From an uncultured Candidatus Saccharibacteria bacterium (GTDB lineage: Bacteria; Patescibacteriota; Minisyncoccia; Phycocordibacterales; UBA918), in contig CAYGLK010000002.1 of assembly GCA_964350985.1 (NCBI GenBank), positions 229,406 to 293,405 of the forward strand: 64,000 nucleotides of DNA, in the 5' to 3' direction. The notes below the pieces were generated by a model. That model worked only from the letters and a program-made list of their open reading frames with translations, did no database searches and was not told where the DNA came from. Made by a program: the position numbers and the translations under genes. Below, in pieces: positions 12,718 to 26,745 of this stretch (the stretch's first letter is position 1; each line of letters begins with the position of its first letter).

Positions 12718-13659
12718 ATGAGCATCGCTTTAGTCTACACAATCCAACCCCATGTACTATCCGGAAGTGTTGTCAGAATTGAAGCTGATTTATCTAGAGG
12801 GCTCCATTCTTTTTCTATTGTTGGCTTAGCTGGTAAAGCTATAGAGGAATCCAAAGATCGTATCAGTAGTGCTATCAAACATTCTGGTTTTGAGTCACCA
12901 AAAAGTAAAAACCAAAAGATCACCATCTCTCTTTCTCCGGCTGATTTGAAGAAAGAGGGTCCACTTTTTGATCTACCGATTGCTCTAGCCTATCTAGATG
13001 CAGCCGGAGAAATTTCAATTCCTGAAGATACAATTTTTGTTGGGGAACTAGGCCTAGACGGAGACCTAAGGGCAGTTAGAGGAGTTTTAAATATTGTGAC
13101 AGCCGCCAAAGAAAGTGGTTACTCAAAAATAATAGTTCCAGGAGCAAACGCAGCCGAAGCAGCCTTGGTTGAAGGAATTGACGTCTATGCTGCTAAAAAT
13201 CTAAATGAAGTTATTTGTCACTTAAGTCCTTCCAGACCAGATTTTAAATTACTCACTATTGAGCCATTAACTCAAGTTGATGAAAATAACTGGACTGAAG
13301 GTACTGTAGTTCTTGAGGATATCAAAGGACAGGAAAGTGCTAAGCGAGCACTAGTTATTGCTGCCGCTGGTAGACATAATGTTATCTTGGTTGGTCCGCC
13401 AGGAACAGGGAAGACGATGTTGGCTAGAGCTTTCCAGGGCATTCTGCCACCCTTATCGAGAAGTGATACTTTGGCCGTCACTGCGATTCACTCAATCAGT
13501 GGGCAAGAAATATCTCTAAGTACCAAGCCACCTTTTCGTACTCCGCACCACACTGCTTCACACACCGCTTTAGTCGGAGGTGGAACTAACCCTAAACCAG
13601 GAGAGGTCACTTTGGCACATAAAGGAGTCTTGTTTATAAAGTGTGTCCCACAAAACTAA
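12718..13659 (+). pseudogene. comM: comM/yifB Mg-chelatase-like AAA ATPase, N-terminal part, interrupted by the integrated element
   Basis: Lon-like N-domain plus AAA Walker A 'GPPGTGKT'. It ends '...GEVTLAHKGVLFIKCVPQN*' just before the conserved LDELPEF block. Confidence 0.85.
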
Positions 13660-13660
13660 T
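13621..13660. repeat. attL-like junction (comM side TCTTGTTTAT / element arm AAAGTGTGTCCCACAAAAC)
   Basis: The comM frame diverges here. The element-side arm is the inverted complement of the arm at the right junction. Confidence 0.6.
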
Positions 13661-13661
13661 T

Positions 13662-14036
13662 TTACGGATTACAGTTTAAATACCTGTATGCACGAGGACC
13701 ATCGCCAAAAGCCATTGTGATTTTCTTGTTCATATACTTATCTCGCACCTCTTTAGGTGCAATTTTGCCTTCGAATTCCCATTTTGTAGGTTCAAACTTA
13801 TTTTTTTTCCAGCTATCTATAATAAATACACCCTTGACTCTATTCTGGTAAATAGCCAGTGCGTATTCTGCCAAATCTCTTGACTCCCAATTATTGCCGA
13901 CATCCCATGCTTGTTTGGCTATATCATAAATAGTATTCTCATCTCCGTCCATATATGGCTTATAGGTTTGAGCGATACTCACCAGAATCACCCTATCTTC
14001 TATGTCTTCCATCCTAATTTCTGTGAGAGCTTCCAT
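13662..14036 (-). CDS. hypothetical protein (element cargo)
   Basis: 124 aa, no recognisable motif. Its stop lies 2 nt from the comM' stop. Confidence 0.45.
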   Translation of the reverse strand: MEALTEIRMEDIEDRVILVSIAQTYKPYMDGDENTIYDIAKQAWDVGNNWESRDLAEYALAIYQNRVKGVFIIDSWKKNKFEPTKWEFEGKIAPKEVRDKYMNKKITMAFGDGPRAYRYLNCNP

Positions 14037-14223
14037 ATTTTCATTGTAGCAATCATCTAGAACAAAGTCATTTAAGAATACGCTACAATCATTAGAATGG
14101 TTTCAAAACTAAGAGCATCAATAATTATAGTAATTGTAGGTATAGTGTCTTTCTGGCTAGGAATGCAGGCTGTGATTCAAGTTCCTTGTGATTGTATTTC
14201 TAGGTTTGCACTGCTATAGAGTT

Positions 14224-14895
14224 TTAGTCGACCCTTTCTTTTTCGACGAAGTGTAAATAGTCCATAATGCCGTATCCCTTCAGATGTTCATAAGGGTTAC
14301 AGAATCTGTACCACGGTTCAGAGTGATGCCATACACCATCTTCACGCTCCTCTTTTACCGATTGTGAATCAGTTAATTTCTTCGGAGGAAGAAACTTCTT
14401 ATTATCTTTTACTAGAAATATATAATAGTGCACTTTTCCATTTTCTGTTGGTACGATCCGTGCATTTAAAATTCCTTCTTTAACCCACTTAGTTTGAGTA
14501 GCTTTCTTTATCCCGAATCTACTTTCTAACTCGTAAGGACTATAACGATTGTCACTTGTCTTAGCAATTGAACCAGGAATTTTTCGTTTATCTATAGCTT
14601 TCTGGCATGTAATACACTTGATGCCCCATTTGTCATACCAGTTAGTATCCTCTCTTGTTGCAGAACCACATACTGCACAGTTACGACCATTGCCGGGTAG
14701 AGCAAAACCCTTTGGTTCTTTTTCTAATCTTCTGTCCCATCCGTCTTTATCCATCTGACCCTTCATAACAATCTCAAAGAGACCAACGAGTCTACGTCCA
14801 GATTCTGCTGCTTCTTCCCATGACACTTCTTTACCACTTTCTTTTTCCATCAAGTCTTTGAACTCCTGAATACTTTTATCAGATAGTTGAGCCAT
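14224..14895 (-). CDS. hypothetical zinc-ribbon protein (element cargo)
   Basis: 223 aa with 'CAVCGS...(17)...CITCQ' CxxC-CxxC. Confidence 0.5.
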   Translation of the reverse strand: MAQLSDKSIQEFKDLMEKESGKEVSWEEAAESGRRLVGLFEIVMKGQMDKDGWDRRLEKEPKGFALPGNGRNCAVCGSATREDTNWYDKWGIKCITCQKAIDKRKIPGSIAKTSDNRYSPYELESRFGIKKATQTKWVKEGILNARIVPTENGKVHYYIFLVKDNKKFLPPKKLTDSQSVKEEREDGVWHHSEPWYRFCNPYEHLKGYGIMDYLHFVEKERVD

Positions 14896-15129
14896 AGCAT
14901 TTATTTAAAACTTTTAAATAAACTCCACGTTGTTACTAATAGTATAACCTTATTGATGTGGGACATTATCTACAAAACATGTCTCTCTAAAACGATAATC
15001 AAGTATTAATCTTCTTGTTAACCTCTAATAACCTTTTTAAAAAAGGTACGGAGTGAATAAATAGAAACCTTTTCTAGGACAGGTACTAAAACACCTGTCT
15101 TACTAAATGTCCCTAAAAGCAAATATGCT

Positions 15130-16710
15130 TTACTCTGTAATGTTATTTTCAACATGTAACACTTTCTTTAATGTTACATTATATCCATATCCAACAAGTC
15201 TTCGCTTTGCATTACGTAAACTAACCTTACTAAAAAACGGTAAACTTAAGTCTTCGGTACTGTTGCTAATAATCGCATACACTATTTCATACTCGGGTGT
15301 AATTGGACGAGCTTTTGAGTCAGCCAGTTTATGACTATCTGGTAGTTTAGTATTTAATTTTTCTCTAAATGCTTCGTCACTAACAAAGAGTTCCCCAGAA
15401 ACAACACCTTGAGTAAACAGATGGCTAAGAACACTAGAGCCACCATATCTTTTTACATGAATTAGTTTTTTGTCAGCAGTTAATACGTCACAGAATTCAA
15501 TACTGCTATGACCTCCACCGTAGGTGACTAGTTGTCCATCCATACAACATGAACCTGTAAGGGTAGCTACTGCATGCGAATTGTAGTCACCCTCGTTTTT
15601 AAATTCACAGTCTGGCATGGTAACAGAAGATTCAGTCATGTTCTGAAAGTCAATTTCAACTGCTTGAGAAAAGCTATCTGCTATTTCATACCACTTACTA
15701 TTATTTAGGATGTAGAGCTTATTGTTTAATCTGCACTCAGCATATAGACACTGATATGCAGACCATGAATGCAATGTGTCATCTGTAGAAGCTGAAATTG
15801 CAAAAATACGAGAATGTTTTAATTCATCTAAACTTGGACTCCTTTCTAGTTCCGATAGATATGTTGGCACATCCAAGTCATCATGTAGCTCAGCCTGCTT
15901 TGCTCTAAGATATTTAAAACCACTAATGTCAGTCCAATCTACAACTTCTGGTACAGCCATCCAAATATTGTCTATTTCTTCGTTGCCAATTTTGACTACT
16001 AGCTCATCATTTAACTGGCTCTGAATTGCCTTGTCCCGAACTTCGGCAATTTGGTCAATCCAATCAAAGTCACGTTTATAGTCCTCACTCTTATAACGAG
16101 TGTAGCTGTGCTTTAAAAAATCTTGTATATCGTTTACGTCTGTCTTAACAGAAGCATATAAGGCATCTTTTCCAGATACAGTTTTTCCAAAATGTACGTC
16201 ACGTGATTTCCCAGTAACAGAACTAATTAAGTCTTGTTCAATATCAATGCCAAATTCAAAAGGACTTACATCCTTACTCATTTGTTCTCGACTATGTTTT
16301 GGTATTGACCCAAGAGTTGTTTTATCAATACTTCTGAAACCACTTATATCAACTGAATTCAAAACTATTTTTAAACCAAACCGTTCTTCTATTACACCCT
16401 CTTTAATCATATGCCGACCAAACCCGAATGTCACAACAAAGAATCGGACACCATCTATTGTTTCGATAGATGTTACAAAAATACCTCGTGCACTCGATGT
16501 AAATATATTTTGATTATCTAGAGTTTGTCCAAAGAAGTTTTCTATCCAGTCAGGTCTACTTGGGTGTGACTCTTCAAACACAAAAAACCCTTGGTCGTTT
16601 ATCGCGACAGGTTGTTGTGTGCTTTCAACTATATCTTCCAAGTCTGTAATGCCCGCTTTTACTAGGTACACACTTAGTCGATTAGTCTTTGGTTCTACAC
16701 TGGTGGGCAT
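15130..16710 (-). CDS. large hypothetical protein (element cargo)
   Basis: 526 aa with no Walker or nuclease motifs seen. The size and N-terminus 'LSVYLVKAGITDLEDIV' vaguely recall the sporadically distributed TIGR04141/DUF6119 family. This is unverified. Confidence 0.5.
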   Translation of the reverse strand: MPTSVEPKTNRLSVYLVKAGITDLEDIVESTQQPVAINDQGFFVFEESHPSRPDWIENFFGQTLDNQNIFTSSARGIFVTSIETIDGVRFFVVTFGFGRHMIKEGVIEERFGLKIVLNSVDISGFRSIDKTTLGSIPKHSREQMSKDVSPFEFGIDIEQDLISSVTGKSRDVHFGKTVSGKDALYASVKTDVNDIQDFLKHSYTRYKSEDYKRDFDWIDQIAEVRDKAIQSQLNDELVVKIGNEEIDNIWMAVPEVVDWTDISGFKYLRAKQAELHDDLDVPTYLSELERSPSLDELKHSRIFAISASTDDTLHSWSAYQCLYAECRLNNKLYILNNSKWYEIADSFSQAVEIDFQNMTESSVTMPDCEFKNEGDYNSHAVATLTGSCCMDGQLVTYGGGHSSIEFCDVLTADKKLIHVKRYGGSSVLSHLFTQGVVSGELFVSDEAFREKLNTKLPDSHKLADSKARPITPEYEIVYAIISNSTEDLSLPFFSKVSLRNAKRRLVGYGYNVTLKKVLHVENNITE

Positions 16711-16837
16711 GTAATTAAACTACTCCTATTTCGAGTTCAATTCAAGCAGTTCAGTTTAGGCTTTACTTTATTGTTGTAGTGCGAGCTGGCTAGCCATGTC
16801 ATTGCTAGCTTTTATATTACTAATAAACATGAGGATT

Positions 16838-18613
16838 TTATTTTTTGTTGTACATACCAGGATTGTTTCTTAGTAAGTGAGCACTCCGTTGTTTCTCACT
16901 CAGTGTTTTAACGTGCAATATTAGTCTCATTTGACCGTTATTTGAGACTTCTGCTGGAGCTTCAGTAGGTACACTAGTTTTAGTTGGGAACTTAAATACC
17001 ACTTCTGCAAAGTTACTTTTGTGATGAAGTGTAATTCGTTCAATAAACAATCGGAGTATGTATTGCTTTTGCTCGTACGCGACATTGTCTAACTTACCAC
17101 TCAGTGTCTTAAACATTTCAGAGATAACCACGTCTCTATTCTTTTGTTCCTTTTTCTTTAAAAGAGTCTGGGATAGCTTTTGCTTTTGTATTTCCAGTTC
17201 TTTTTGTCGAGTGCGTTTTTCTTTCATCATTGACTCATAATCAGCCTGGCTTATGCCCATGTCAGTGAATGCTTTGACGATTCGTTGTTGTTGCTCTTTG
17301 TTTGTTTTGATTTGAGTATCAAGCCCAGTTATCTTCTTTACGGTTTTAGCTTCATTAGAATTTTTGAATGTATACTCTTCTAACTGAGGAATGGTGTTTG
17401 TTGGGTCCTTAAGGATTGAGACTAGCGTATCCCATATAGGTAATAACCTAGTTTCAGCACATTGCCCATGAACGTCATTCTGTTGACACTCGTCATTGGT
17501 TCTGTCGAGCGGTGCAACGTACGCATGATAGTACTTACCTAATGTTGGTGTTTTTAAGTCCTTCTTTGGTTTTTGATAACCACTTTGTAATTTACGACCA
17601 GTGTACCCAGAGTAAAGTAGTCCAGAAAAAAGATAAATTCTTTTTGCATTCCGTTTCTGCATGACTCGATTTTGTGTCAGTTGTTCAATGGCTTTTTCAA
17701 ACATATCACGAGTAATGATTGACGGTACATGTAACTCAATATGTTCACTTTTAGGTCGCTGGTGCTCTTTGTTTTCAATAGCATCGAGATACTTGAACGG
17801 TCGTTTATACTTGTTGTAGTAAAATGTGCCCGTGTACACCTCGTTTACTAAGAAACGATTAATTGTTCGTTTGTACCATTTTCCATTACGGATTTCATCT
17901 TTTGGTTCTTTGCCCTTTTCAGACTTGTGTGCGGGAGTGGGTAAGTTTAGTTCTATCGCTTTTCGAGTGATTTCACGAAGTGAACATTTTTCATAAACTA
18001 GCCACTCGTAGAACTGCTTGATTACCTCGGCTTCTTCTGGATGAAGAACTAATGTTTTAGTTTTTTTATCTATTCTATATCCATACGGTGGTACACCCGT
18101 TACCCACTTACCCTCACTAGCGGCACGTAATTTTCCACCCATCATTCTTTCTGCTATGAGTCTTCTTTCGTGATGGGCAAATGAAGCAATCATATGAAAC
18201 ATCAATTCACCATTTGAAGTTTCAGTTTCAAAATTTTCGGTAGCTGATTTAAAAGCAATACCATATTCTTTTAGTTGTTCTACTGCACCAATGACTTGTT
18301 TAAGATTGCGTGAAAATCTATCTAATCTGTAAACTAGCACGAGTTCAAATTCCTTTTTTTTAGCGGCTTCAAATAATTCATTCAGAGCAGGTCTACTTTT
18401 AATCGGCAGATTCCCAGAAAACCCACCGTCACAGTAAACATGGTTTTTATCCAGTTTAAAAGAGTGTGCCTCACACAAACGAGTAAGCATTTCCTCTTGT
18501 GATTTCAAGCTGTTACCGTGCTTAGCTTGCTCATCAGTAGAAACACGCAAATAGATTGCGACTTGTTTATTATTTACTATCGTTGGATAGGTTGTTTCAG
18601 TCAGTGTATTCAT
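16838..18613 (-). CDS. large serine recombinase (integrase)
   Basis: N-terminal resolvase catalytic motif 'VAIYLRVSTDEQ' with the Ser nucleophile. 591 aa with a recombinase domain, a Cys-containing zinc-ribbon region and a coiled-coil C-terminus. Confidence 0.85.
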   Translation of the reverse strand: MNTLTETTYPTIVNNKQVAIYLRVSTDEQAKHGNSLKSQEEMLTRLCEAHSFKLDKNHVYCDGGFSGNLPIKSRPALNELFEAAKKKEFELVLVYRLDRFSRNLKQVIGAVEQLKEYGIAFKSATENFETETSNGELMFHMIASFAHHERRLIAERMMGGKLRAASEGKWVTGVPPYGYRIDKKTKTLVLHPEEAEVIKQFYEWLVYEKCSLREITRKAIELNLPTPAHKSEKGKEPKDEIRNGKWYKRTINRFLVNEVYTGTFYYNKYKRPFKYLDAIENKEHQRPKSEHIELHVPSIITRDMFEKAIEQLTQNRVMQKRNAKRIYLFSGLLYSGYTGRKLQSGYQKPKKDLKTPTLGKYYHAYVAPLDRTNDECQQNDVHGQCAETRLLPIWDTLVSILKDPTNTIPQLEEYTFKNSNEAKTVKKITGLDTQIKTNKEQQQRIVKAFTDMGISQADYESMMKEKRTRQKELEIQKQKLSQTLLKKKEQKNRDVVISEMFKTLSGKLDNVAYEQKQYILRLFIERITLHHKSNFAEVVFKFPTKTSVPTEAPAEVSNNGQMRLILHVKTLSEKQRSAHLLRNNPGMYNKK

Positions 18614-18770
18614 TGTTAATTTTCCCTAAAGTGATTTTAACCATTCCCTCAGAATCATCAGTTGTGAACTCAGTACCCTCAGGCAATTCCATTTCGCTAA
18701 GGATTCTATGGGGCTGGTCACTATCGTGAACAGCTTCTTTTAATTTTTTAAGTGTGTGTCTTTTATTCAT
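18597..18770 (-). CDS. small ORF (57 aa) overlapping the integrase start; possible directionality factor or regulator
   Basis: ATG at 18770 (cat on + strand). 'MNKRHTLKKLKEAVHD...' ends with TGA overlapping the int start. Below the ORF-track size cutoff. Confidence 0.25.
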   Translation of the reverse strand: MNKRHTLKKLKEAVHDSDQPHRILSEMELPEGTEFTTDDSEGMVKITLGKINNEYTD

Positions 18771-18833
18771 AAGCCAAATAATTGTTACTCTATTGGCTAT
18801 TGAATATGGTGCGTCAGCTATGTAAAGGTAGTT

Positions 18834-20648
18834 CTATACATTGCCACCTTCTCCGACTTCAGTAAGTTTATATTTTTTCTTACGTTCGATAATTTCAGAA
18901 GTGATGAAGTCTTCATTTTCAAGCTCAATCAGTGCACTGGCAACGTTTCTTGCACCGATGTCCTCTTCCTCTTTGATAGCTTCAATCAGCTCTTCTCGAT
19001 ACAGAGATTCATTAGCTAGTAACTCAAGTGCAAATTCTTTCGCACGTAGTTTCTTAATTGTTGTACTAGGTGCATTGCCACCATATAACAACTGTATTTG
19101 TGGATGTTCATCAGCATTCTCAATCAACACTACTTGTGCAGGTTCAGCACTCTTACCTCTACGTGACTTAGCGTGTCTGATAGTGATATTCACCGGGCCT
19201 TCTGCGCTTGTTTTCTCTACAACAACTAGTGAATCTAGGCGTCCAAGAATTGCTGATGAACCACGAAGGCTCTGAGCTTGTCCACCAAGACCCCCTTTTC
19301 TATTGTGGTGAATAAAGGCCACCGACACGCTAATCTCATTAAATTTCTGCATAGCTGTCATCACGACCTGCATTTCCTCAGCATTGTTTTCTACTTTGTT
19401 GTGTAATGCAGCGAATGGGTCAAAGATTATTAATCCAATCTCATGCTTTTCACACAATTTAATTAAGCGGCTCACGCTCTCTGGCTTGTCTAGCTTAAAC
19501 TCTCTCTGGCAACAAAAGTAAATATCAAGCTCATCAGTATAGCCAAGCAACTCCAGTCTGCGTCGCATCTCCCATTTTCCACTTTCCTCATCTACAATTA
19601 AGACTTTCTTTTTTATACTCTTAAACTCATTGAGAAATTTATCTCCAATCGCTACAGCTCTGGCCATCTCTAACATTAACCAGCTTTTACCACATCCCGG
19701 GTGTCCTGACATTGCAGTAATTCCGTTTTCAGGCACAAGGCCTTCAATCAGAAATTTAGGTCTCTCCGATTCAGGCATTTTTAATAACTCACCTACAGAC
19801 AGTGGAGGTTCGTAATTTTTTGTTAAATCAACAACCCCTTTATCTTTTCTTTGTTGTTTCTGTTTTGCACTAAGCGAGCTATAAATGCTATTTAACTCTG
19901 AGTTGGGGAGAGGTGGATCGCACATAGCATCATTCCAACTTGCTAATGATGTATATACCACTTCACTCCAATCTTTTTCTGGTATATGTGCTAGTAGTTT
20001 ACCCGCTAGCCGTACTGCCGTGTTGTGGCGGTTACCTTCACTTACTGGCTCGGACAAGACTCCGTCCCATTCTTCTTTTTCAAGTTTAGTACTTGTAAGT
20101 GTTTCGATTAGCCACTCAGGTGCAGTCTGTAAGTCACTTGTGCCCAGTGGCTTTATCCATTCATATTCTTTTCCAGTGTCAGGATGTATTGAAGGTGGTG
20201 CAACGATGTACTGTCTATTTCCCTTAACATCACCCTCAATCCCGTGCTTCTTTAGACTTGTAGATGTGAATTCCCAACTGTCCTCACCTATGCCTGAAAA
20301 GTAATAATGGATGCCGTCCCGACCGCTCTTTGAACGAACGCAATTTGTTGGTAGGTCTAGCTTTGATAAATCTTGCTCTGCTTCTAAATCTAGTACAAAC
20401 ATATTTTCAAAGTAACCAGTTCTCAGACCAACGCCTGTGATACTTTTACCAAACTGTTCAAACCATCTTTTTACGTCGGAATGATTGGGTTCATACTCTT
20501 CTTCACTCCACCCTTTGACTAAAGGTCGCTTTCCATTAAGTGGTATTATAACCTTGTCTTGCTCAATGTATTCAAGCATTGCCTCCTCTATTTTTTGCTG
20601 ATTACTAGTATGTGACTTCATCGGAGTCTTGCTTACGTTTGGTATCAA
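18834..20648 (-). CDS. bifunctional primase-polymerase (PrimPol) N-domain fused to a RepA/DnaB-like AAA_25 ATPase
   Basis: N-terminal 'IPLNGKRPLVKGW' Prim-Pol motif. Walker A 'MSGHPGCGKS' and Walker B 'VLIVDE'. A winged-helix tail follows. Confidence 0.7.
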   Translation of the reverse strand: MIPNVSKTPMKSHTSNQQKIEEAMLEYIEQDKVIIPLNGKRPLVKGWSEEEYEPNHSDVKRWFEQFGKSITGVGLRTGYFENMFVLDLEAEQDLSKLDLPTNCVRSKSGRDGIHYYFSGIGEDSWEFTSTSLKKHGIEGDVKGNRQYIVAPPSIHPDTGKEYEWIKPLGTSDLQTAPEWLIETLTSTKLEKEEWDGVLSEPVSEGNRHNTAVRLAGKLLAHIPEKDWSEVVYTSLASWNDAMCDPPLPNSELNSIYSSLSAKQKQQRKDKGVVDLTKNYEPPLSVGELLKMPESERPKFLIEGLVPENGITAMSGHPGCGKSWLMLEMARAVAIGDKFLNEFKSIKKKVLIVDEESGKWEMRRRLELLGYTDELDIYFCCQREFKLDKPESVSRLIKLCEKHEIGLIIFDPFAALHNKVENNAEEMQVVMTAMQKFNEISVSVAFIHHNRKGGLGGQAQSLRGSSAILGRLDSLVVVEKTSAEGPVNITIRHAKSRRGKSAEPAQVVLIENADEHPQIQLLYGGNAPSTTIKKLRAKEFALELLANESLYREELIEAIKEEEDIGARNVASALIELENEDFITSEIIERKKKYKLTEVGEGGNV

Positions 20649-21024
20649 CTTTTTCCTTTGTTAATGGAGGTTTGTATCCCTCATCATTAGCTTGTTTCAC
20701 AAAGTGTGAGATAAGTTTATGAACGTCAATGTGAAATATACTCATACCGTTTCTGTTTTGCTCTGGCTGGTAGTCTGCTTCGTTGAAGGTCCAGAACGAT
20801 GCAATTGGCGTGTTCCTACCGACTGGAAATGAGTAATTGATCGTGTAACCAAAAATGTCTCTAAAGCTTCGGTTGTGCGATGCATCTTTGGTTGGGTAGT
20901 AGAATCCGTCCGTCTGGTAGTTGTGGTCAACACGTGTGACAAATTGTTTGATAAGTTGTTCCTCAGTTAGCTCTGTTTGTTGCAGTGCAGTGTATTCTTC
21001 AGTTGTAATTTTGCTTGGATTCAT
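20605..21024 (-). CDS. hypothetical protein
   Basis: Probable start 'MNPSKITTEEY' at 21024. No known domain. Confidence 0.4.
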   Translation of the reverse strand: MNPSKITTEEYTALQQTELTEEQLIKQFVTRVDHNYQTDGFYYPTKDASHNRSFRDIFGYTINYSFPVGRNTPIASFWTFNEADYQPEQNRNGMSIFHIDVHKLISHFVKQANDEGYKPPLTKEKVDTKRKQDSDEVTY

Positions 21025-21275
21025 ATTCTTCTTATTATTGATTAAGCATGAGTATGTCGAAGAGTGCCTCGTAGGCACATTCCAGCTCTTTTGTTTCGAT
21101 GCTGTTTAATTCCTTAGTACTCATGCGAGTAGTCTAATAAACACAGCATTTTTTACTTTTTTTAAAATTTTGCTCCTTTTTTACAAGTGGATACACTCAA
21201 AAGAACCTTGTTTTTACAAGTTTTTTTGAAGATGTTATTAAAAATATTTAATTGGAGTGTAAAACTTTACTCTTC

Positions 21276-22010
21276 TTAATTCAGCTCCACTAATACAAAA
21301 CCTTTTTTCGTATTACCATTTATCTCAACTGGCACACCTTTCCTTTTTAAGTATGCTCGAGAATCTTTTACTATCTTAATGAGTGCATCTTGGTTCTTAG
21401 TTAAACCTAATTTAGATACTAGTTCGTTATGGCTCACTCGCAGTACTTTAGTAAGTTTATTTTTCTTACAACGTGTTGGCCATAAAATTTTGAACATTTG
21501 TTGTTTCTTTTTTCCTGAGACCGTGTAAAAGTTGGTACCACCCCAAACGAACTTATTTTCATACTTACTATAGTGCAGTGAATCTACTGAACTCTTTTTT
21601 TGCCTTCCAGTAAGAACAGATACCAACAGTTGATATTCGATTGCAGTATCTGTCATTAAGTTTGTCAGGGTGCTACTTTCTGAATTTAAAAGCTCGTCGT
21701 CATGTTCGATGAACTTAGCTATGCCGCTCGTTGTAACGAAGTTATTTTCCAGAAACTCACGTAATAGTGAGAAGTTTGATTCAAATGAATTAAATTGCTC
21801 CTTCAACTGTTCCTCCAAAAAAACAAAAGAAGGTCTACTCAATAGTTGTATATATTGATCCAACACATTTAGTCGTTTTGCTGAAAAACGTCCAGTGCTT
21901 TCAATTTCATAAAACCATTCGTCAATAAATATTTCTGGTAGAGCAAGAAAAAATGCTTCTCTTCTGTCTCTATCATCCAGTAAAGGCATTGTTAGTGGTG
22001 AAATATTCAT
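21276..22010 (-). CDS. hypothetical protein (possible wHTH regulator or replication accessory)
   Basis: 244 aa with a basic C-terminal tail 'LTKVLRVSHNELVSKLGLTKNQ' resembling an HTH. Confidence 0.4.
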   Translation of the reverse strand: MNISPLTMPLLDDRDRREAFFLALPEIFIDEWFYEIESTGRFSAKRLNVLDQYIQLLSRPSFVFLEEQLKEQFNSFESNFSLLREFLENNFVTTSGIAKFIEHDDELLNSESSTLTNLMTDTAIEYQLLVSVLTGRQKKSSVDSLHYSKYENKFVWGGTNFYTVSGKKKQQMFKILWPTRCKKNKLTKVLRVSHNELVSKLGLTKNQDALIKIVKDSRAYLKRKGVPVEINGNTKKGFVLVELN

Positions 22011-22155
22011 TTTTAAATACTATTTTGAATCAAAGCAAAATGCAACACTATATAGGTGTTGCACATTGCAAAGGTGACTAATGGTAATTACCTAATACAT
22101 CACCAATCCAGTGTCTCTCGTAGGACTCTAGGGTTCATCGTGGGTACTCTATTGG

Positions 22156-22656
22156 CTAAATAGACACACATTTCCTTGATTCATCATATCCATCACTAGA
22201 CATGACAATTCCCCTACTTACTCCCTCACCAAGTAAAGTAGTAGTTGTAATATCTGGCCAGTCAGAAAACTCTACTGCAACAGCATCAACTGAAAGTGTC
22301 AGACCTGTATAGTCCAACTTGTTTGTTGCATAAGTAGCAATATCACCAGCACCTTCAAGACCTGTACCTTGCAAGTCACCACTGATGAAATAAACACTTG
22401 AGAAATCGTTTGATTTAACAGCTTTTACATTCCGTATAGACCCACCTCCATTTATATTCAAACCACTGTTAAGTCTTTCTACGAGTGTGTCTGGTACCTC
22501 AAGACATCGTGAGGTAACAGTGCTAGTGCTCCCTACTCCTGCTGGCTCCGCATCTGATGCTGTATCTATTACAACCGCAACTATTATTACAAATACAATC
22601 AGTACTAACCACGTCACTGGTGAAGTTTTCTTCTTTTCAACTTTATCTTGCTCCAT
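22156..22656 (-). CDS. membrane-anchored hypothetical protein
   Basis: N-terminal TM 'WLVLIVFVIIVAVVI' followed by a Gly/Thr-rich extracellular domain. Confidence 0.45.
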   Translation of the reverse strand: MEQDKVEKKKTSPVTWLVLIVFVIIVAVVIDTASDAEPAGVGSTSTVTSRCLEVPDTLVERLNSGLNINGGGSIRNVKAVKSNDFSSVYFISGDLQGTGLEGAGDIATYATNKLDYTGLTLSVDAVAVEFSDWPDITTTTLLGEGVSRGIVMSSDGYDESRKCVSI

Positions 22657-22906
22657 AAATTTTGGTATTACCTAGTAAACCCCAGAGCAGAACATACAAA
22701 AAGCCCACTACCAGGTGGACCGAAGTCCTACTAAGGTTTCCCCTAATAACGTTGAAGACGCAACCTGATAATGGGTTGTTTGTCTTCAACGATTTTCGAC
22801 CATACCTCTGTCTCACGACAAAGGGTTAGGTCATTGATATTCAGTTGTCATCCAATAGTATTTCTTTTGATCGTTAATGTAAACCTTGCCGTTAACTAGA
22901 TTGTGG

Positions 22907-22948
22907 AAAAGGATCATTTTTAAGATAAATGTATATTAAAATGATCCT
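22907..22948 (+). promoter_or_regulatory. palindromic operator-like inverted repeat (AAGGATCATTTT-16 nt-AAAATGATCCT) overlapping a -10-like TATATT just upstream of the HTH-methyltransferase start
   Basis: Perfect 11-bp inverted-repeat arms. Each arm contains GGATC. Confidence 0.5.
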
Positions 22949-23944
22949 ATGATAAGTTCAGCTTTAATCACTGTGGAAGAGGCTGCTGATTTGCTCAAAG
23001 TAAACACGATAACAGTGTACAGGAATATTAAAAACGGCACATTAAAAGCTAAGAAAAATGGCAAGACCTACTCTATTGTTCTAGAAGATTTAGTTAATTT
23101 TATTAACGTTAAAAATATGAAATCTTCTCAAACTACTTCAAGGAAAGCAAAACCATTCTTAAAGTGGGCGGGTGGAAAAAGACAACAGGTTGATCTTCTG
23201 TCAGAGCAGATACCAGTTGTAATAAATGGAACTTACCACGAACCATTCCTAGGAGGTGGTGCGTTGTTTTTCCATTTGCAACCACAAAAGGCGAAACTAT
23301 CTGATTCAAACTCAGAGTTGATTAATGCTTACACAGTAGTGAGGGATAGTGTGGATGACCTGATTGATTCACTATCTATACATAAGAATAATGAAGACTA
23401 CTATTACGAAACCAGAAGTATAAACCCTCTTGATCTAGACCCTATCAAGCGTGCAAGTAGAACAATTTACTTAAATAAAACCTGCTTCAATGGCCTCTAT
23501 AGGGTAAACAAGAAAGGTATTTTTAACGTACCTTTTGGAAAGAAGAAGGGAGAATTTACATACGATACTGCCAACTTGAGACTAGCAAGCGAAGCTCTTA
23601 AAAATGTTGAATTGACTGTTAGTGATTATAAAGAATCCCTAAAGGGTATAAAAAAACAGGATGTTGTTTACATAGACCCCCCGTATTATCCAGTAGGTGG
23701 CTTTGCCGACTTTCAAAGATATACAAAAGAGTGCTTCTCAGAACATGATCACGATCAGTTGTTTAATCTTTTTAAAAAGATTTCTGACAGAGGGGTGACA
23801 ATAATCCAATCTAATTCGAATTCAAAATACATACTTGATAAATACTCAGAATTTCACATGGATATTATTGATGCCAAACGATTAATTAGTAGCAACTCTG
23901 CAACCAGAAATAGTAAGGATGTAATTATTTACAGAAAAAAATAG
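22949..23944 (+). CDS. N6-adenine DNA methyltransferase (Dam/D12 class) with N-terminal excisionase/MerR-type HTH
   Basis: 'FLKWAGGKRQQVDLL', 'EPFLGGGALFF' and 'VYIDPPY' are Dam motifs. The first ~50 aa, 'VEEAADLLKVNTITVYRNIKNGTLKA', form an HTH. Confidence 0.8.
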   Translation: MISSALITVEEAADLLKVNTITVYRNIKNGTLKAKKNGKTYSIVLEDLVNFINVKNMKSSQTTSRKAKPFLKWAGGKRQQVDLLSEQIPVVINGTYHEPFLGGGALFFHLQPQKAKLSDSNSELINAYTVVRDSVDDLIDSLSIHKNNEDYYYETRSINPLDLDPIKRASRTIYLNKTCFNGLYRVNKKGIFNVPFGKKKGEFTYDTANLRLASEALKNVELTVSDYKESLKGIKKQDVVYIDPPYYPVGGFADFQRYTKECFSEHDHDQLFNLFKKISDRGVTIIQSNSNSKYILDKYSEFHMDIIDAKRLISSNSATRNSKDVIIYRKK

Positions 23945-23945
23945 T

Positions 23946-24989
23946 ATGACTCCAGATACACAAAAGCAGTTAAAAAAATATCCAGGCACCCGTTTTATGG
24001 GTAGTAAATATAAAGTACTACCAGAAATAGAGAAAGTATTAGCTGACTTGGAATTTGATACAGTACTCGATGCTTTTTCTGGAAGTGGTTGTGTCTCATA
24101 TCTGTTCAAAACGATGGGAAAAGAGGTTCATAGCAATGACTTTATGAAGTACTCGCACAGCACATCTAAGTCTCTCATTGAAAATAGCGATTTTCTCTTA
24201 AAAAAAAGTGACATTGAGTATATTACTGCTATAAACAGCAAGAGTAATTTCATTTCAAAGAAGTTTAAAGACTTATATTTTAGTGACGAAGATAATAAAT
24301 TTCTAGATTCTGCTTTTAGTAATATACACAGCATTAGAAACCCTTATAAAAAATCAATGGCTTTAGCTTCAATCTCAAGAGCTATGATTAAACGTAGACC
24401 AAGAGGTGTGTTTACATACGTAGGTAATAAATTTGATGACGGTAGAAAGGATTTAAATCAAAGTCTTGAACAACACTTCATCGATAATGTCGCTATTTTT
24501 AATAACGCAGTTTTTGATAATGGCAAAGAAAATTACTCATATCATGGAGATATTTTCAGTCTTGAATTAGAAAAACAAATGGACCTTGTTTACATGGATC
24601 CTCCATATCTATCAAAAAGTTCTGATAATGATTATGTGCGTCGATATCATTTTGTAGAAGGTTTTGTTGATGGGTGGAAAAATGTTGAAATTGACGAAGC
24701 TACAAAAACAAAAAAGTTTCCTTCGTACAAATCCAGATTTGGTTCAAAAAAGACAATAGACTTAGCTTTCTTTGACATCTTTAAAAAGTTTGAGAAAAGT
24801 AATATCTTGTTATCCTATTCATCAAATTCAATACCAGACAAAGATACTTTGATCGAGATGCTGGCAAAAACTCACAAAACAGTTAATGTATATGAGATAG
24901 ACCATGTCTACTCTTTTGGTACTCATAGTCACAAGAAAAATAACACCACAAACAGAGTCAAAGAATACTTCTTCTTAGCAAAACCTTAA
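23946..24989 (+). CDS. second N6-adenine DNA methyltransferase (D12-class-like)
   Basis: 'FMGSKYKVLPEI', motif I 'DAFSGSGCV' and motif IV 'VYMDPPY'. Confidence 0.7.
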   Translation: MTPDTQKQLKKYPGTRFMGSKYKVLPEIEKVLADLEFDTVLDAFSGSGCVSYLFKTMGKEVHSNDFMKYSHSTSKSLIENSDFLLKKSDIEYITAINSKSNFISKKFKDLYFSDEDNKFLDSAFSNIHSIRNPYKKSMALASISRAMIKRRPRGVFTYVGNKFDDGRKDLNQSLEQHFIDNVAIFNNAVFDNGKENYSYHGDIFSLELEKQMDLVYMDPPYLSKSSDNDYVRRYHFVEGFVDGWKNVEIDEATKTKKFPSYKSRFGSKKTIDLAFFDIFKKFEKSNILLSYSSNSIPDKDTLIEMLAKTHKTVNVYEIDHVYSFGTHSHKKNNTTNRVKEYFFLAKP

Positions 24990-24991
24990 AT

Positions 24992-26713
24992 ATGTCAAAA
25001 GTCTGGAATATTGGAAATACAACAGTTAGAAATCCTAAAAGGATTGAAATGGGTCTGAGAGTCATGAACGAGCAGAACCTTTTTGGTTGTATGGAGGGAG
25101 CTGAAAATGAAGAAGCGTTAACAAAGGCATTAGTAGATTCTGGAGTTGTAGATTCTAAATCTGAGGGTAAAAGTGCAGCATGGTTAGGTAGAAAATGGAG
25201 GAGTGTAATGGTCAAACTTGGCTTCTTAACTAGCAATAAATATAGGATTCAAGGAAAGACATTTAAAGTAGAAGATCTGGAGGGTTACACTAGTTTTTCA
25301 AAATCTCCATATGTATTGACGCCAGCAGGTCAACGCATGGTTAGCTCTACTACACAGGGTGAGGTTAGTGACGTATTTCTTAAGCAAATGATTAAGCATG
25401 CAGTTCCTAACCCTTCAGAAACAGCTAGGGATTTTGACTCGCACATAAAACCGTTCATACTTTTCTTATCTGTATTGAGATCGATTCAAAATGAAGGTAA
25501 GGGTCTAAACCAAAAGGAGATTGCTATTTTTATACAAAAGATTCAGCCTCACAAAGAAGGTTTGTCAGAAGTAATAGTGAAAGAAATTTTAGATTATCGA
25601 GAGAAAAGAGATGCACTTGATTCCAAAAGAACTAAGAGAGAATTTGACCAAAGTTTACTAGAAAAAAATGCAGAAGAAATGTCTATTAAGTCTACTACTC
25701 CATTAGACTATGCTGACACTACAATCAGGTACTTCTCGATGACAGGTCTGTTCGAAATGATTGGAAGCAGAGTAAATATTAAAGAAGAAAAGAAAGATTT
25801 GGTTGATGATATATTGGAATCAACTAGCATTGAAAATATATTAACCGGTGTTGATTACCTAAATGCTTTTTACGGAAATATACCTGTTGTTAAAAATGAG
25901 GAAGTTTCTGCCAGAAAAGAGTACTCCAGTCTTCTTAGAAAAGCCAAAGCATTTGATTTAAAGTTACCTACTATTGAAGTTGATCCAACTTTGGAGGAAC
26001 TAAAGACCGTAACTTTTAATCTGGAAGAACAAATACTATTAGCGGTTGAAGATAAATTTGCCTTAGAACAGCAAACAGATATTGAGATAGAAAAAATTAA
26101 ATACCATATATCAAAAATAGCTAATAAAGACAGGGATTACTTTAGATCAATCGTAGATATGCCAGCAAACTTGGAGTGGGTGGTATGGAGAGGGTTTCTT
26201 TCGATTGACCACATTACTTGTCCCATTCAGGAAACAAGAGGATTTCCTGTAGATGCAGATCTTAAACCTCGATATCCAGCACCTGGAGGAAGAGCAGATA
26301 TGCTCTTTGAATTTGAAGATCATTATCTTGTAGTTGAGGTTACCTTGACTACATCAACGAGACAATATATTGCTGAGTGTGAACCAGTTAGGAGACATGT
26401 TGCTGAAGAGAGAGGAGGTAAGCCAGTATATGGACTATTTATTGCTCCTAGTTTGGATAATAATTTCCTACACGGGTTAAGAGAGTACTATAAAGGTGAC
26501 GATCTAGTTCAACTGAAAATTCTTCCTTTGACCCTAAACGATTTTGAAACCATTATTGATCTTCATAAGACCAGTAAACTGAATCCTTCAGATATTAAAG
26601 AGTTAGTATTAAAGGGGTCTGATGAGAAAATTACAAATGCTATTGAATGGAGGCAACACATTCAGGATACACTTGCTGGTTGGGTATCTGAAAGAACAAA
26701 AGAAGTTGTATAA
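24992..26713 (+). CDS. putative Type IIS restriction endonuclease, AlwI/BstNBI/PleI family
   Basis: 573 aa lying directly after two m6A methyltransferases. Blocks 'TTIRYFSMTGLF', 'LEWVVWRGF', 'GGRADMLFEFEDHYLVVEVTLTTS', 'EPVRRHV' and 'LFIAPS' match recalled conserved blocks of the AlwI family. This rests on memory, not a search. Confidence 0.55.
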   Translation: MSKVWNIGNTTVRNPKRIEMGLRVMNEQNLFGCMEGAENEEALTKALVDSGVVDSKSEGKSAAWLGRKWRSVMVKLGFLTSNKYRIQGKTFKVEDLEGYTSFSKSPYVLTPAGQRMVSSTTQGEVSDVFLKQMIKHAVPNPSETARDFDSHIKPFILFLSVLRSIQNEGKGLNQKEIAIFIQKIQPHKEGLSEVIVKEILDYREKRDALDSKRTKREFDQSLLEKNAEEMSIKSTTPLDYADTTIRYFSMTGLFEMIGSRVNIKEEKKDLVDDILESTSIENILTGVDYLNAFYGNIPVVKNEEVSARKEYSSLLRKAKAFDLKLPTIEVDPTLEELKTVTFNLEEQILLAVEDKFALEQQTDIEIEKIKYHISKIANKDRDYFRSIVDMPANLEWVVWRGFLSIDHITCPIQETRGFPVDADLKPRYPAPGGRADMLFEFEDHYLVVEVTLTTSTRQYIAECEPVRRHVAEERGGKPVYGLFIAPSLDNNFLHGLREYYKGDDLVQLKILPLTLNDFETIIDLHKTSKLNPSDIKELVLKGSDEKITNAIEWRQHIQDTLAGWVSERTKEVV

Positions 26714-26745
26714 GTTTGTGGGACTCTTCTTATGGATGAGTTTCC
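26700..26745. repeat. attR-like junction (element arm AAGTTTGTGGGACTCTTCTTAT / comM side GGATGAG)
   Basis: The comM frame resumes at ATG 26732 ('MDEFPEF'). TTTGTGGGAC is the inverse of GTCCCACAAA at the left junction. Confidence 0.6.

What the first reader, a model, noticed from the sequence alone, without database searches (positions are those of the whole stretch)
22907..26713. Type IIS-like R-M module: HTH-fused Dam-like methyltransferase, a second m6A methyltransferase and an AlwI-family-like endonuclease, with a GGATC-bearing palindromic operator
Two adjacent D12-class m6A methyltransferases followed by a ~570-aa endonuclease is the layout of Type IIS systems with an asymmetric site, where one methyltransferase serves each strand. 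The endonuclease carries blocks that I recall as AlwI/BstNBI/PleI-family, such as 'RYFxxTGLF', 'EWxxWxGF', 'PDM...VxEVTxTTS', 'EPVxRH' and 'FIAP'. The first methyltransferase has an excisionase/MerR-type HTH at its N-terminus. A perfect 11-bp inverted repeat (AAGGATCATTTT ... AAAATGATCCT) straddles a -10-like element right at its start codon, and each arm contains GGATC. This resembles the autoregulatory operators of HTH-fused methyltransferases such as M.SsoII and M.EcoRII. GGATC is the AlwI site, and Dam-like enzymes methylate within GATC. That suggests GGATC specificity and possibly methylation-sensitive autoregulation.
Basis: partly seen in the sequence, partly recalled or inferred. Interest (0 to 1): 0.6.

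Follow-up and report, generated by a model that had tools for sequence, protein, structure and literature searches.

The report
AlwI-type restriction system with self-sensing promoter
This is an intact restriction-modification system of the known AlwI (GGATC) kind carried on a mobile element; one of its two protective methylases has a DNA-binding domain fused to it, and its promoter carries two conserved boxes that probably contain the system's own target site.

Summary
Three tightly packed + strand genes encode M1 (22949-23944: HTH_17 domain plus Dam-family D12 methyltransferase), M2 (23946-24989: second D12 methyltransferase) and R (24992-26713: AlwI-family endonuclease). All catalytic motifs are intact. 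The perfect 11-bp inverted repeat AGGATCATTTT/AAAATGATCCT lies at 22910-22920 and 22938-22948 and ends one base before the ATG.

The repeat arms are invariant in five related loci (M1 61-74% identical) while the spacer between them drifts. The right arm overlaps a TAAAAT -10 element 6 nt before the ATG, so the mRNA is probably leaderless.

All 96 AlwI-family loci surveyed keep a Dam-like domain, a second D12 domain and R. The two methyltransferase domains are either fused, as in M.AlwI, M.EacI and M.GmeI, or split. The split, HTH_17-fused form is confined to a small clade.

Convergent GGATC...GATCC pairs sit upstream of the methyltransferase in three separate lineages. No pair in any other orientation was found.

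Autoregulation and methylation sensing are inferred, not shown. Precedents exist in M.EcoRII/M.SsoII and in CfrBI, so this is a new variant of a known kind.

The operon is cargo at the right edge of a 13.1-kb serine-recombinase element that splits comM. A LOOT RNA gene lies next to the operon's promoter.

The parts
22902..22909 (+). Conserved block TGTGGAAA immediately 5' of the left box. It could be a second protein-binding element.
   Evidence: TGTGG is invariant in 6 of 6 aligned promoters. A related TTGGAAAAA is kept in L010.
22910..22920 (+). Left box of the inverted repeat, AGGATCATTTT, containing GGATC (22911-22915). It overlaps the -35 position of the proposed promoter.
   Evidence: Read directly. 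AAGGATCATTT is invariant in 6 of 6 loci.
22937..22942 (+). -10-like hexamer TAAAAT (TATAAT in L002 and L009), 6 nt upstream of the ATG. This implies a leaderless mRNA.
   Evidence: The position is conserved. No Shine-Dalgarno sequence is present. The host genome is poor in Shine-Dalgarno sequences (8 of 53 genes), and many genes have a TATAAT-like element 5-9 nt before the ATG.
22938..22948 (+). Right box of the inverted repeat, AAAATGATCCT, containing GATCC (22943-22947). It overlaps the -10 element and the predicted transcription start.
   Evidence: Read directly. AATGATCCTATGAT is invariant in 6 of 6 loci. The two GATC cores are 31-33 bp apart in all six.
22949..23944 (+). M1: an N-terminal HTH_17 winged-helix domain (about residues 1-58), a linker, and a Dam-family D12 N6-adenine methyltransferase (residues 66-331).
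   Evidence: The best solved relative is DpnM (GATC) at 192.7 bits. Motif I is EPFLGGGALFF and motif IV is DPPY. The AlphaFold2 model of residues 1-71 has pLDDT 82 and is closest to BldC, RacA, RdfS and Xis.
23946..24989 (+). M2: a second, divergent D12-class N6-adenine methyltransferase.
   Evidence: Pfam PF02086 at 69.4 bits. Motif I is FSGSG and motif IV is DPPY. It matches positions 302-641 of the 643-position PADLOC MTase_II model PDLC03261 at 388 bits. It also matches the C-terminal half of the fused 641-aa methyltransferases.
24992..26713 (+). R: an AlwI-family Type IIS-type restriction endonuclease.
   Evidence: Pfam PF09491 at 243.8 bits. N.BspD6I at 115 bits, with the ADM...EVT...ECEPV catalytic block aligned. 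Full-length match to PADLOC REase_II PDLC03463 at 210 bits. 32.7% identical to the AlwI-family enzyme of an Acinetobacter lwoffii plasmid.
13636..26731 (.). The 13.1-kb integrative element that carries the operon at its right edge and is inserted in comM/yifB.
   Evidence: The N-terminal part of comM (12718-13659) stops at Mg_chelatase profile position 115. The C-terminal part (26732-27328) starts at position 112. A shared TTAT lies at 13634-13637 and 26730-26733. Inner inverted half-sites are GTCCCACAAA (13645-13654) and TTTGTGGGAC (26715-26724). The large serine recombinase is at 16838-18613 on the minus strand.

Best explanation
This is a complete, apparently active Type IIS restriction-modification operon of the AlwI family, most likely specific for GGATC.

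Modification and restriction. M1 (Dam-like) and M2 are the split equivalent of the two-domain methyltransferases M.AlwI, M.EacI and M.GmeI. Together they place N6-methyladenine on both strands of GGATC/GATCC. R cuts unmodified sites.

Expression. The three genes are read from one promoter as a leaderless mRNA. M2 and R are probably translated by coupling, because the gaps are 1-2 nt and there is no ribosome-binding site.

Control. The promoter is bracketed by two inverted copies of AGGATCATT, three helical turns apart. One copy lies over the -35 position and the other over the -10 element and the transcription start. The proposal is that the N-terminal winged-helix domain of M1 binds these boxes and represses the operon. 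Each box contains the system's own target, so the methylation state of the boxes would alter that binding, RNA polymerase binding, or both. Expression would then be coupled to whether the DNA is already protected.

What is shown: gene identities, intact motifs, family-wide architecture, conservation of the boxes, and their co-occurrence with the HTH.

What is inferred: GGATC specificity, the leaderless start, HTH binding to the boxes, repression, and the methylation effect.
For: -
- M1 and M2 match the N- and C-terminal halves of fused 620-680-aa methyltransferases that sit next to AlwI-family genes. This holds in all 96 loci surveyed. They also match the two halves of a single PADLOC model.
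- PMC3526280 states that M.AlwI, M.EacI and M.GmeI are fusions of two domains that make GGm6ATC and Gm6ATCC.
- M1 keeps the equivalents of E. coli Dam K9, N120, L122, R124, N126 and P134, and the DpnM-like FNGLYRVN block.
- The boxes are invariant in 6 of 6 loci whose M1 proteins are 61-74% identical, while the spacer varies. The two positions lost from each arm in L002 and L009 are not compensated.
- The HTH_17 fusion and the boxes co-occur in this clade.
- Convergent GGATC...GATCC pairs upstream of the methyltransferase occur in three lineages: this clade, L045, and L095/L096/L100. Divergent and direct pairs number zero in 96 loci.
- The -10 element followed by 6 nt and the ATG, with no Shine-Dalgarno sequence, fits a genome in which 45 of 53 genes lack one.
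- Precedents: HTH-fused methyltransferases repress their own promoters, M.EcoRII only when its sites are methylated. CfrBI and LlaDII sense methylation of their promoters (PMC3874152, PMC12707154).
Against: - No experiment or methylome is available, so specificity rests on family resemblance and promoter motifs.
- At 32.7% identity to the Acinetobacter enzyme, specificity could have changed.
- L010, an HTH_17-fused relative (47% identical), keeps the TGGAAAAA block and the TATAAT-6 nt-ATG arrangement. In place of GGATC/GATCC it has GGTTT/GAACC. The HTH might therefore bind the TGTGGAAA block and not the boxes.
- L045 has a GGATC palindrome but no HTH, so such boxes can work without one.
- The six loci with boxes form one clade, so their agreement counts as one evolutionary origin.
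- No convincing -35 hexamer was found, and the promoter scan did not call this promoter.
- GGATC is not avoided in the host DNA (ratio 1.21 in the whole window). This says nothing either way about whether R is active.
Confidence: 0.6

Rival explanations
1. The boxes are not an HTH operator. They are the system's own recognition sites, placed in the promoter so that methylation directly changes RNA polymerase binding, or so that the catalytic domains of the methyltransferase or the endonuclease occupy them. This is CfrBI/LlaDII-type control. The HTH would bind a different conserved element, such as TGTGGAAA at 22902-22909, or would have another role.
For: - L045 has a perfect 12-bp palindrome, TTATTTGGATCA-CATT-TGATCCAAATAA, in its promoter. 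Its methyltransferase has no HTH and no regulator gene lies nearby.
- In L095, L096 and L100 the GGATC pair is 51-52 bp apart, and other repeated motifs (AGACAT) are present.
- L010 keeps the HTH and the TGGAAAAA block but has lost GGATC.
- Only the convergent orientation of site pairs is seen.
Against: - In this clade the conserved sequence extends beyond GGATC to AGGATCATT on both arms. That is more than a 5-bp recognition site needs.
- In this clade the HTH_17 fusion and the boxes appear together.
Confidence: 0.25
2. The inverted repeat acts as an RNA hairpin in a longer 5' leader transcribed from an upstream promoter (for example TTGATA-16 nt-TAGTAT at 22834-22861). It would limit translation of M1 at the adjacent AUG.
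For: - The 11-bp stem folds at -12.1 kcal/mol and ends one base before the AUG.
- A consensus-like promoter lies upstream at 22834-22861.
Against: - There is no covariation. Both arms are invariant in sequence across loci whose proteins are only 61-74% identical.
- In L002 and L009 the two outer pairs are lost without compensation.
- The conserved TAWAAT, 6 nt before the ATG, matches the leaderless pattern of this genome.
- The upstream conserved block is more simply explained as the divergent promoter of the LOOT RNA on the minus strand.
Confidence: 0.07
3. The HTH_17 (excisionase-family) domain of M1 serves the mobile element. It would act as a recombination directionality factor for the large serine recombinase, and would not be a regulator of the restriction-modification operon.
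For: - The domain matches the excisionase family TIGR01764. Its model resembles the RdfS and Pukovnik Xis excisionases.
- Serine recombinases lie next to these operons in the window, L002, L009 and L010.
Against: - The fold matches BldC and RacA, which are transcription and DNA-organisation factors, at least as well.
- No M1-type box occurs at the element's ends.
- Other AlwI-family systems carry unrelated HTH types in the same position: MerR-type, XRE-type and a stand-alone gene. That pattern fits regulation of the operon.
Confidence: 0.05

Closest known systems
AlwI / EacI / GmeI GGATC Type IIS systems (PMC3526280)
   Same: - They have an AlwI-family endonuclease plus two D12-class m6A methyltransferase domains, in the same order: Dam-like first, then the second domain.
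- R is 32.7% identical over 91% of its length to the AlwI-family enzyme on an Acinetobacter lwoffii plasmid.
- M1 and M2 match the two halves of one 643-position PADLOC methyltransferase model.
   Different: - Here the methyltransferase is split into two genes, and the first carries an N-terminal HTH_17 domain.
- The A. lwoffii plasmid system has a separate small HTH gene upstream and an operator-like repeat without GGATC.
- Specificity was not measured here.
Regulatory methyltransferases with an N-terminal HTH: M.SsoII, M.Ecl18kI, M.EcoRII, M.MspI, M.ScrFI (PMC3874152, PMC12707154, PMC2760811)
   Same: - An N-terminal DNA-binding domain of about 60-70 residues is joined by a linker to the catalytic domain.
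- An inverted repeat overlaps the methyltransferase promoter.
- M.EcoRII is reported to repress only when its sites are methylated, which is the behaviour proposed here.
   Different: - Those enzymes are C5-cytosine methyltransferases in Type IIP/IIE systems, often with divergent R and M genes and competing promoters.
- Here the enzyme is a Dam-like N6-adenine methyltransferase in a one-promoter M1-M2-R operon.
- The HTH is of the BldC/excisionase (HTH_17) kind.
- The half-sites are about 31 bp apart and each contains the presumed cognate site.
Control by methylation of the promoter: CfrBI, LlaDII (PMC3874152, PMC12707154)
   Same: The cognate recognition site lies inside the promoter of the methyltransferase gene. 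In CfrBI it lies within inverted repeats.
   Different: - Those systems have no HTH on the methyltransferase.
- Here two convergent sites bracket the core promoter, and an HTH is fused to the enzyme.
N.BspD6I / Nt.BstNBI nicking enzymes (GAGTC), PDB 2ewf and 5liz
   Same: They share the family (PF09491) and the catalytic block. The match is 115 bits, mostly over the C-terminal catalytic half.
   Different: - The N-terminal recognition region is barely similar (23.6 bits).
- PADLOC scores R at 210 bits, full length, against a restriction-enzyme model, and at 109 bits, C-terminal part only, against the nicking-enzyme model.
- No small-subunit gene follows R.

Membership tests
AlwI-family restriction endonucleases (Pfam PF09491) | A match to the family profile above its curated threshold over most of the profile. 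| tested here: met
   243.8 bits against a cut-off of 23.1, covering profile positions 9-441 of 441.
AlwI-family restriction endonucleases (Pfam PF09491) | An intact PD-(D/E)xK-type catalytic block in the C-terminal half. | tested here: met
   GGRADMLFEFEDHYLVVEVTLTTS...ECEPVRRH aligns with QPDMEIIYEDFIVLGEVTTSK...MESEPVTRH of N.BspD6I. D436, E449 and E464 are invariant in 18 homologues.
AlwI-family restriction endonucleases (Pfam PF09491) | Recognition of GGATC with cleavage 4/5 nt downstream, and double-strand cutting through transient dimers. | not testable with these tools
   Support is indirect only: and PMC3526280.
D12-class (alpha) N6-adenine DNA methyltransferases (PF02086) | A profile match above threshold, with motif I (FxGxG) and motif IV (DPPY). 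| tested here: met
   M1 scores 189.8 bits, with FLGGG and DPPY. M2 scores 69.4 bits, with FSGSG and DPPY.
Dam family (TIGR00571), GATC-recognising | A score above the subfamily cut-off, and conservation of the residues that contact GATC in E. coli Dam. The residue list is recalled from the Dam-DNA structure papers. | tested here: met
   M1 scores 258 bits against a cut-off of 114.85. The equivalents of K9, N120, L122, R124, N126 and P134 are kept, with Y119 replaced by F as in DpnM. M2 does not match this subfamily.
Two-domain GGATC methyltransferases (M.AlwI / M.EacI / M.GmeI type) | A single polypeptide that fuses the two methyltransferase domains. | tested here: not met
   There are two separate ORFs, with a stop codon at 23942-23944. 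The domain content and order are the same as in the fused forms. Split forms are common in the family.
SsoII-like regulatory methyltransferases | An N-terminal HTH domain on the methyltransferase. | tested here: met
   HTH_17 at 28 bits (cut-off 27) and TIGR01764 at 33.9 bits (cut-off 28.8). The model has pLDDT about 90 over residues 10-50 and is a winged helix similar to BldC and RacA.
SsoII-like regulatory methyltransferases | An inverted-repeat operator that overlaps the methyltransferase promoter. | tested here: met
   The boxes at 22910-22920 and 22938-22948 overlap the -35 position and the -10 element and start site, and are conserved in 6 of 6 loci. Binding was not tested.
SsoII-like regulatory methyltransferases | A C5-cytosine methyltransferase catalytic domain. 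| tested here: not met
   The catalytic domain is a D12 N6-adenine methyltransferase. The system may work like this family but is not a member.
Restriction-modification systems controlled by promoter methylation (CfrBI type) | The cognate recognition site lies inside the methyltransferase promoter. | tested here: inconclusive
   GGATC and GATCC lie in the promoter boxes, and this recurs in three lineages. That GGATC is the cognate site is inferred, not measured.

The most novel reading that the evidence does not exclude
A Dam-like methyltransferase reads its own epigenetic mark. Its fused winged-helix domain would bind two operator half-sites that each embed the system's recognition sequence, so that occupancy depends on whether M1 and M2 have already methylated them. 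The operon would then run freely in a naive host and shut down once the DNA is protected. Convergent GGATC pairs in three separate lineages of the family would mean that this 'cognate site in the promoter' design has been selected repeatedly in Type IIS AlwI-type systems, with or without a fused HTH.
Probability: 0.3. Interest if true: 0.5.

Novelty: new variant of a known kind. Interest (0 to 1): 0.35.

Why it matters
The paper searches made here turned up HTH-fused regulatory methyltransferases only among C5-cytosine enzymes (PMC3874152, PMC12707154). This locus, together with the XRE-type and MerR-type fusions found alongside it, shows that the same solution exists for Dam-like adenine methyltransferases of Type IIS systems.

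It also gives a compact promoter of about 50 bp in which repressor binding and methylation of the cognate site can be separated experimentally.

The recurrent convergent GGATC pairs offer a sequence-only clue to the specificity of uncharacterised AlwI-family systems.

The practical value is modest. The result improves annotation of AlwI-family systems, which are numerous in metagenomes, and gives an example of defence cargo on a serine-recombinase element that interrupts comM.

Tried and rejected
- GGATC and GATC avoidance in the window. Neither is depleted overall (ratios 1.21 and 0.94), so this gives no information on specificity or activity.
- Exact look-up of the window's R protein on contigs. 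Nothing is on record.
- Cluster look-up for names. None are given.
- Homologue search with the HTH region alone. No candidates were found, and the search was wasted.
- Pattern scan for the operator in metagenome contigs. There were three hits. One is the L009 locus again (L092). The other two, upstream of a CTP synthase in L091 and of a 23-aa ORF in L093, are not next to an HTH-M1 gene; my rough estimate was that a few chance matches would be expected. There were none in viral contigs.
- Profile search of 1.84 billion representative proteins. No hit matched the profile from position 1, so HTH_17-Dam fusions are rare. Several Dam-like proteins with N-terminal extensions carry XRE-type HTH domains instead.
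- Promoter scan. It did not call the proposed promoter because no -35 match exists. The leaderless promoter is therefore inferred from conservation and from the habit of this genome.
- A second, small endonuclease subunit as in BspD6I. It was considered and rejected, because no ORF fits between the R stop codon (26713) and the element's end (26731).
- Similarity of TGTGG in the promoter to the recombinase half-site TTTGTGGGAC. Only 5 nt are shared, so it was treated as coincidence.
- Relatives of the serine recombinase in viral contigs. None were found.

Full report
**1. The observation**

The region holds three closely packed + strand ORFs:
- M1, 22949-23944, 331 aa
- M2, 23946-24989, 347 aa
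- R, 24992-26713, 573 aa

The gaps between them are 1 and 2 nt.

Profile searches identify them as follows.
- M1 has HTH_17 (28 bits, cut-off 27; residues 6-52) and MethyltransfD12 (189.8 bits).
- M2 has MethyltransfD12 (69.4 bits).
- R has RE_AlwI (243.8 bits, cut-off 23.1, almost the whole profile).
- NCBIfam places M1 in the Dam family (TIGR00571, 258 bits against 114.85) and finds an excisionase-type DNA-binding domain (TIGR01764, 33.9 against 28.8).

AGGATCATTTT is at 22910-22920 and AAAATGATCCT at 22938-22948, with a 17-nt spacer. The ATG is at 22949.

A perfect 11-bp inverted repeat with a gap of 3-30 nt is expected about once per 64 kb by chance (mean 0.95 in 200 simulations). The window holds about 14 real ones, mostly terminator hairpins. 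The repeat is therefore significant because of its position and conservation, not because it exists.

**2. The proteins**

*R.* In the PDB, R matches only the nicking enzyme N.BspD6I (115 bits). The C-terminal catalytic half aligns well and the catalytic block is conserved. The N-terminal recognition region scores only 23.6 bits. PADLOC gives a full-length match to a Type II restriction-enzyme model (210 bits, positions 3-566 of 570). The match to the nicking-enzyme model is 109 bits and C-terminal only. R is 32.7% identical over 91% of its length to the AlwI-family enzyme on an Acinetobacter lwoffii plasmid.

*M1.* The best solved relative of M1 is DpnM, the GATC methyltransferase of DpnII (192.7 bits). 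E. coli Dam follows at about 129 bits. In that alignment M1 keeps the equivalents of Dam K9, N120, L122, R124, N126 and P134, and has the DpnM-like FNGLYRVN block. The identity of the GATC-contact residues is from my recollection of the Dam-DNA structure papers. The alignment itself is.

*M2.* M2 has no solved relative. It carries FSGSG and DPPY, and it matches positions 302-641 of a 643-position PADLOC methyltransferase model. M1 matches positions 17-284 of that same model.

**3. The family**

The closest relatives of R (50-54% identical; L003-L008, and L013 from a Candidatus Lloydbacteria genome) sit next to a single methyltransferase of about 640-660 aa with two D12 domains and no HTH.

A survey of 96 loci from genomes, metagenomes and viral contigs found the same content everywhere: a Dam-like domain, then an M2-like domain, then R. 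The two methyltransferase domains are fused in about half of the loci and split in the rest.

Murray et al. (PMC3526280) state that M.AlwI, M.EacI and M.GmeI are such fusions. One domain makes GGm6ATC and the other makes Gm6ATCC on the complementary strand. The window's M1 and M2 are the split form of that enzyme. A 2026 Mycoplasma paper makes the same association between AlwI-family endonucleases and fused or split adenine methyltransferase pairs (PMC12898733).

**4. The promoter boxes**

HTH_17-fused M1 proteins were found in only a handful of sequences. For five of them the upstream DNA could be read: L001, L002, L009, L011 and L012 (M1 61-74% identical).

All five have the same arrangement as the window:

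TGTGGA(A/T)AAG-GATCATTT ... variable spacer ... AA(A/T)GTA(C/T)A(T/G)TA(A/T)AATGATCCT-ATG

- The arms are invariant while the spacer and flanks diverge.
- In L002 and L009 the arms are 9 bp, and the lost outer pairs are not compensated. The conservation is therefore of sequence, not of base pairing.
- The two GATC cores are 31-33 bp apart in all six, which is three helical turns.
- A -10-like TAAAAT or TATAAT lies at a fixed 6 nt before the ATG, and there is no Shine-Dalgarno sequence.
- In this genome only 8 of 53 genes have a Shine-Dalgarno-like motif, and many have a TATAAT-like element 5-9 nt before the ATG. A leaderless M1 mRNA is therefore the natural reading.
- With +1 at the A of the ATG, the right box covers the -10 element and the start site, and the left box covers the -35 position.

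**5. Is GGATC in the boxes meaningful?**

Among the loci without the HTH_17 fusion, the 300 nt before the Dam domain usually contain no GGATC at all. There are two independent exceptions.

- L045 (an alphaproteobacterial genome; fused methyltransferase, no HTH, no regulator gene nearby) has a perfect 12-bp palindrome, TTATTTGGATCA-CATT-TGATCCAAATAA, in its promoter.
- Three viral contigs (L095, L096, L100) have TGGATC-N46-GATCCA conserved upstream. Their fused methyltransferase carries an HTH-like stretch (matched by tblastn with the M1 HTH) inside a 155-aa N-terminal extension.

Across the 96 loci, convergent GGATC...GATCC pairs no more than 70 nt apart were found in seven loci, which represent three lineages. 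Divergent and direct pairs were found in none.

This pattern supports GGATC as the cognate site. It also supports cognate sites in the promoter as a recurrent design in this family.

Against a strict link between the HTH and the boxes stands L010 (HTH_17-M1, 47% identical). It keeps TTGGAAAAA and TATAAT-6 nt-ATG, but has GGTTT and GAACC where the others have GGATC and GATCC.

**6. The HTH**

An AlphaFold2 model of residues 1-71 has mean pLDDT 82, and about 90 over residues 10-50. It is a small winged helix.

Foldseek finds BldC, RacA, the RdfS excisionase and mycobacteriophage Xis as the best matches. TM-scores are 0.6-0.85 and the E-values are weak because the domain is small.

Other AlwI-family systems solve the same problem with other DNA-binding modules.
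- MerR-type HTH domains are fused to fused methyltransferases in L035 and L056.
- An XRE-type HTH is fused to the Dam-like methyltransferase in L019. XRE-type HTH fusions to Dam-like methyltransferases also occur in P0188, P0244, P0245, P0247 and P0289, whose gene neighbourhoods were not examined.
- A separate 83-aa HTH gene lies in front of the methyltransferase on the A. lwoffii plasmid. It has its own inverted repeat, ACACATAAAA/TTTTATGTGT, and no GGATC.

Regulation through an HTH is thus common in the family. The HTH_17 fusion is one rare version of it.

**7. Mechanism and known parallels**

Reviews describe two known modes of control (PMC3874152; PMC12707154).
- Methyltransferases with an N-terminal HTH repress their own promoter: EcoRII, SsoII, Ecl18kI, MspI and ScrFI, all C5-cytosine enzymes.
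- Methylation of cognate sites in the promoter controls expression: CfrBI and LlaDII.

M.EcoRII is reported to repress only when its sites are methylated.

The locus here appears to combine both modes in a Dam-like adenine methyltransferase of a Type IIS system. I propose that the M1 HTH represses a leaderless M1-M2-R operon through the two boxes, and that methylation of the embedded GGATC modulates this. Translational coupling would give M1 ≥ M2 ≥ R.

The rivals are:
- boxes that act without the HTH (confidence 0.25)
- an RNA hairpin (0.07; -12.1 kcal/mol, but no covariation)
- an excisionase role for the HTH (0.05)

**8. Context**

The operon is the rightmost cargo of a 13.1-kb element (about 13636-26731) inserted in comM/yifB.
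- The N-terminal part of comM ends at Mg_chelatase profile position 115, and the C-terminal part starts at 112.
- Both junctions share TTAT and are flanked on the inside by inverted half-sites, GTCCCACAAA and TTTGTGGGAC. This is the pattern expected for attL and attR of a large serine recombinase.
- The element also encodes that recombinase (16838-18613), a PrimPol-AAA_25 primase/helicase-like protein, a DUF6119 protein and several unknown proteins.
- The recombinase is 61% identical to the one in L009, the same divergence as M1, so recombinase and operon have travelled together.
- L001 shows the same operon next to the same comM fragment in a related organism.

**9. Verdict**

This is an ordinary, well-populated family of restriction-modification systems with an uncommon regulatory variant. 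Function is inferred only. Interest is moderate to low (0.35), and the novelty class is 'new variant of a known kind'.

Noticed in passing
window 22717-22832 (minus strand); also L001 4-113, L009 4782-4899, L011 504-621: A LOOT RNA (Rfam RF03000, an sRNA of unknown function) scores 70 bits against a gathering score of 46.4. It is transcribed divergently from the operon's promoter, is followed by a terminator-like hairpin, and lies upstream of a small membrane-protein ORF (22156-22656). It is conserved next to the same operon in three related loci (61.7-74.8 bits). This places LOOT RNAs on serine-recombinase mobile elements.
   Followed up: partly
window 13636-26731: A 13.1-kb integrative element splits comM/yifB (N-terminal part 12718-13659, C-terminal part 26732-27328). 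Both junctions share TTAT, and inverted half-sites GTCCCACAAA / TTTGTGGGAC lie just inside them. The element carries a large serine recombinase (16838-18613, minus strand), a PrimPol-AAA_25 protein (18834-20648, minus strand) and a DUF6119 protein (15130-16710, minus strand).
   Followed up: partly
window 13641-22900; L009 485-4990; L002 1-3900: GATC is strongly depleted in the element's backbone: 5 observed against 23 expected (ratio 0.22). The two related elements show ratios of 0.30 and 0.31. The operon itself (0.98) and the host flanks (0.97-1.17) are not depleted. This is unexplained.
   Followed up: partly
whole window (53 likely genes): Only 8 of 53 genes have a Shine-Dalgarno-like motif, and many have a TATAAT-like element 5-9 nt before the ATG. 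This suggests widespread leaderless or very short-leader mRNAs in this organism. The source organism was not identified; its G+C content is about 39%.
   Followed up: no
window 13662-14036 (minus strand): A 124-aa ORF at the left edge of the element partly matches the PADLOC candidate defence protein PD-T4-3 (37.6 bits, profile positions 132-193 of 256) and phrog_5356. It may be a fragment or a small relative.
   Followed up: no
L045 3073-3100: A perfect 12-bp palindrome, TTATTTGGATCA-CATT-TGATCCAAATAA, lies in the promoter of an AlwI-family system that has no HTH. The system sits next to a tyrosine-integrase-like ORF.
   Followed up: partly
L035 3537-3697 and L056 2949-3195: Two systems have a MerR-type HTH fused to the fused methyltransferase, which is transcribed divergently from R. 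They share a repeated motif, TGAACCGAAA-N12-14-C(C/A)TTATACA, in the intergenic region (once in L035, twice in L056). It is a candidate operator of a different kind.
   Followed up: no
L091, 4706-4751 of the reverse complement: The same box pair, AGGATCATT-N25-AATGATCCT-ATG, occurs in front of a CTP synthase gene on an unrelated 135-kb metagenome contig. It is probably a chance match.
   Followed up: no
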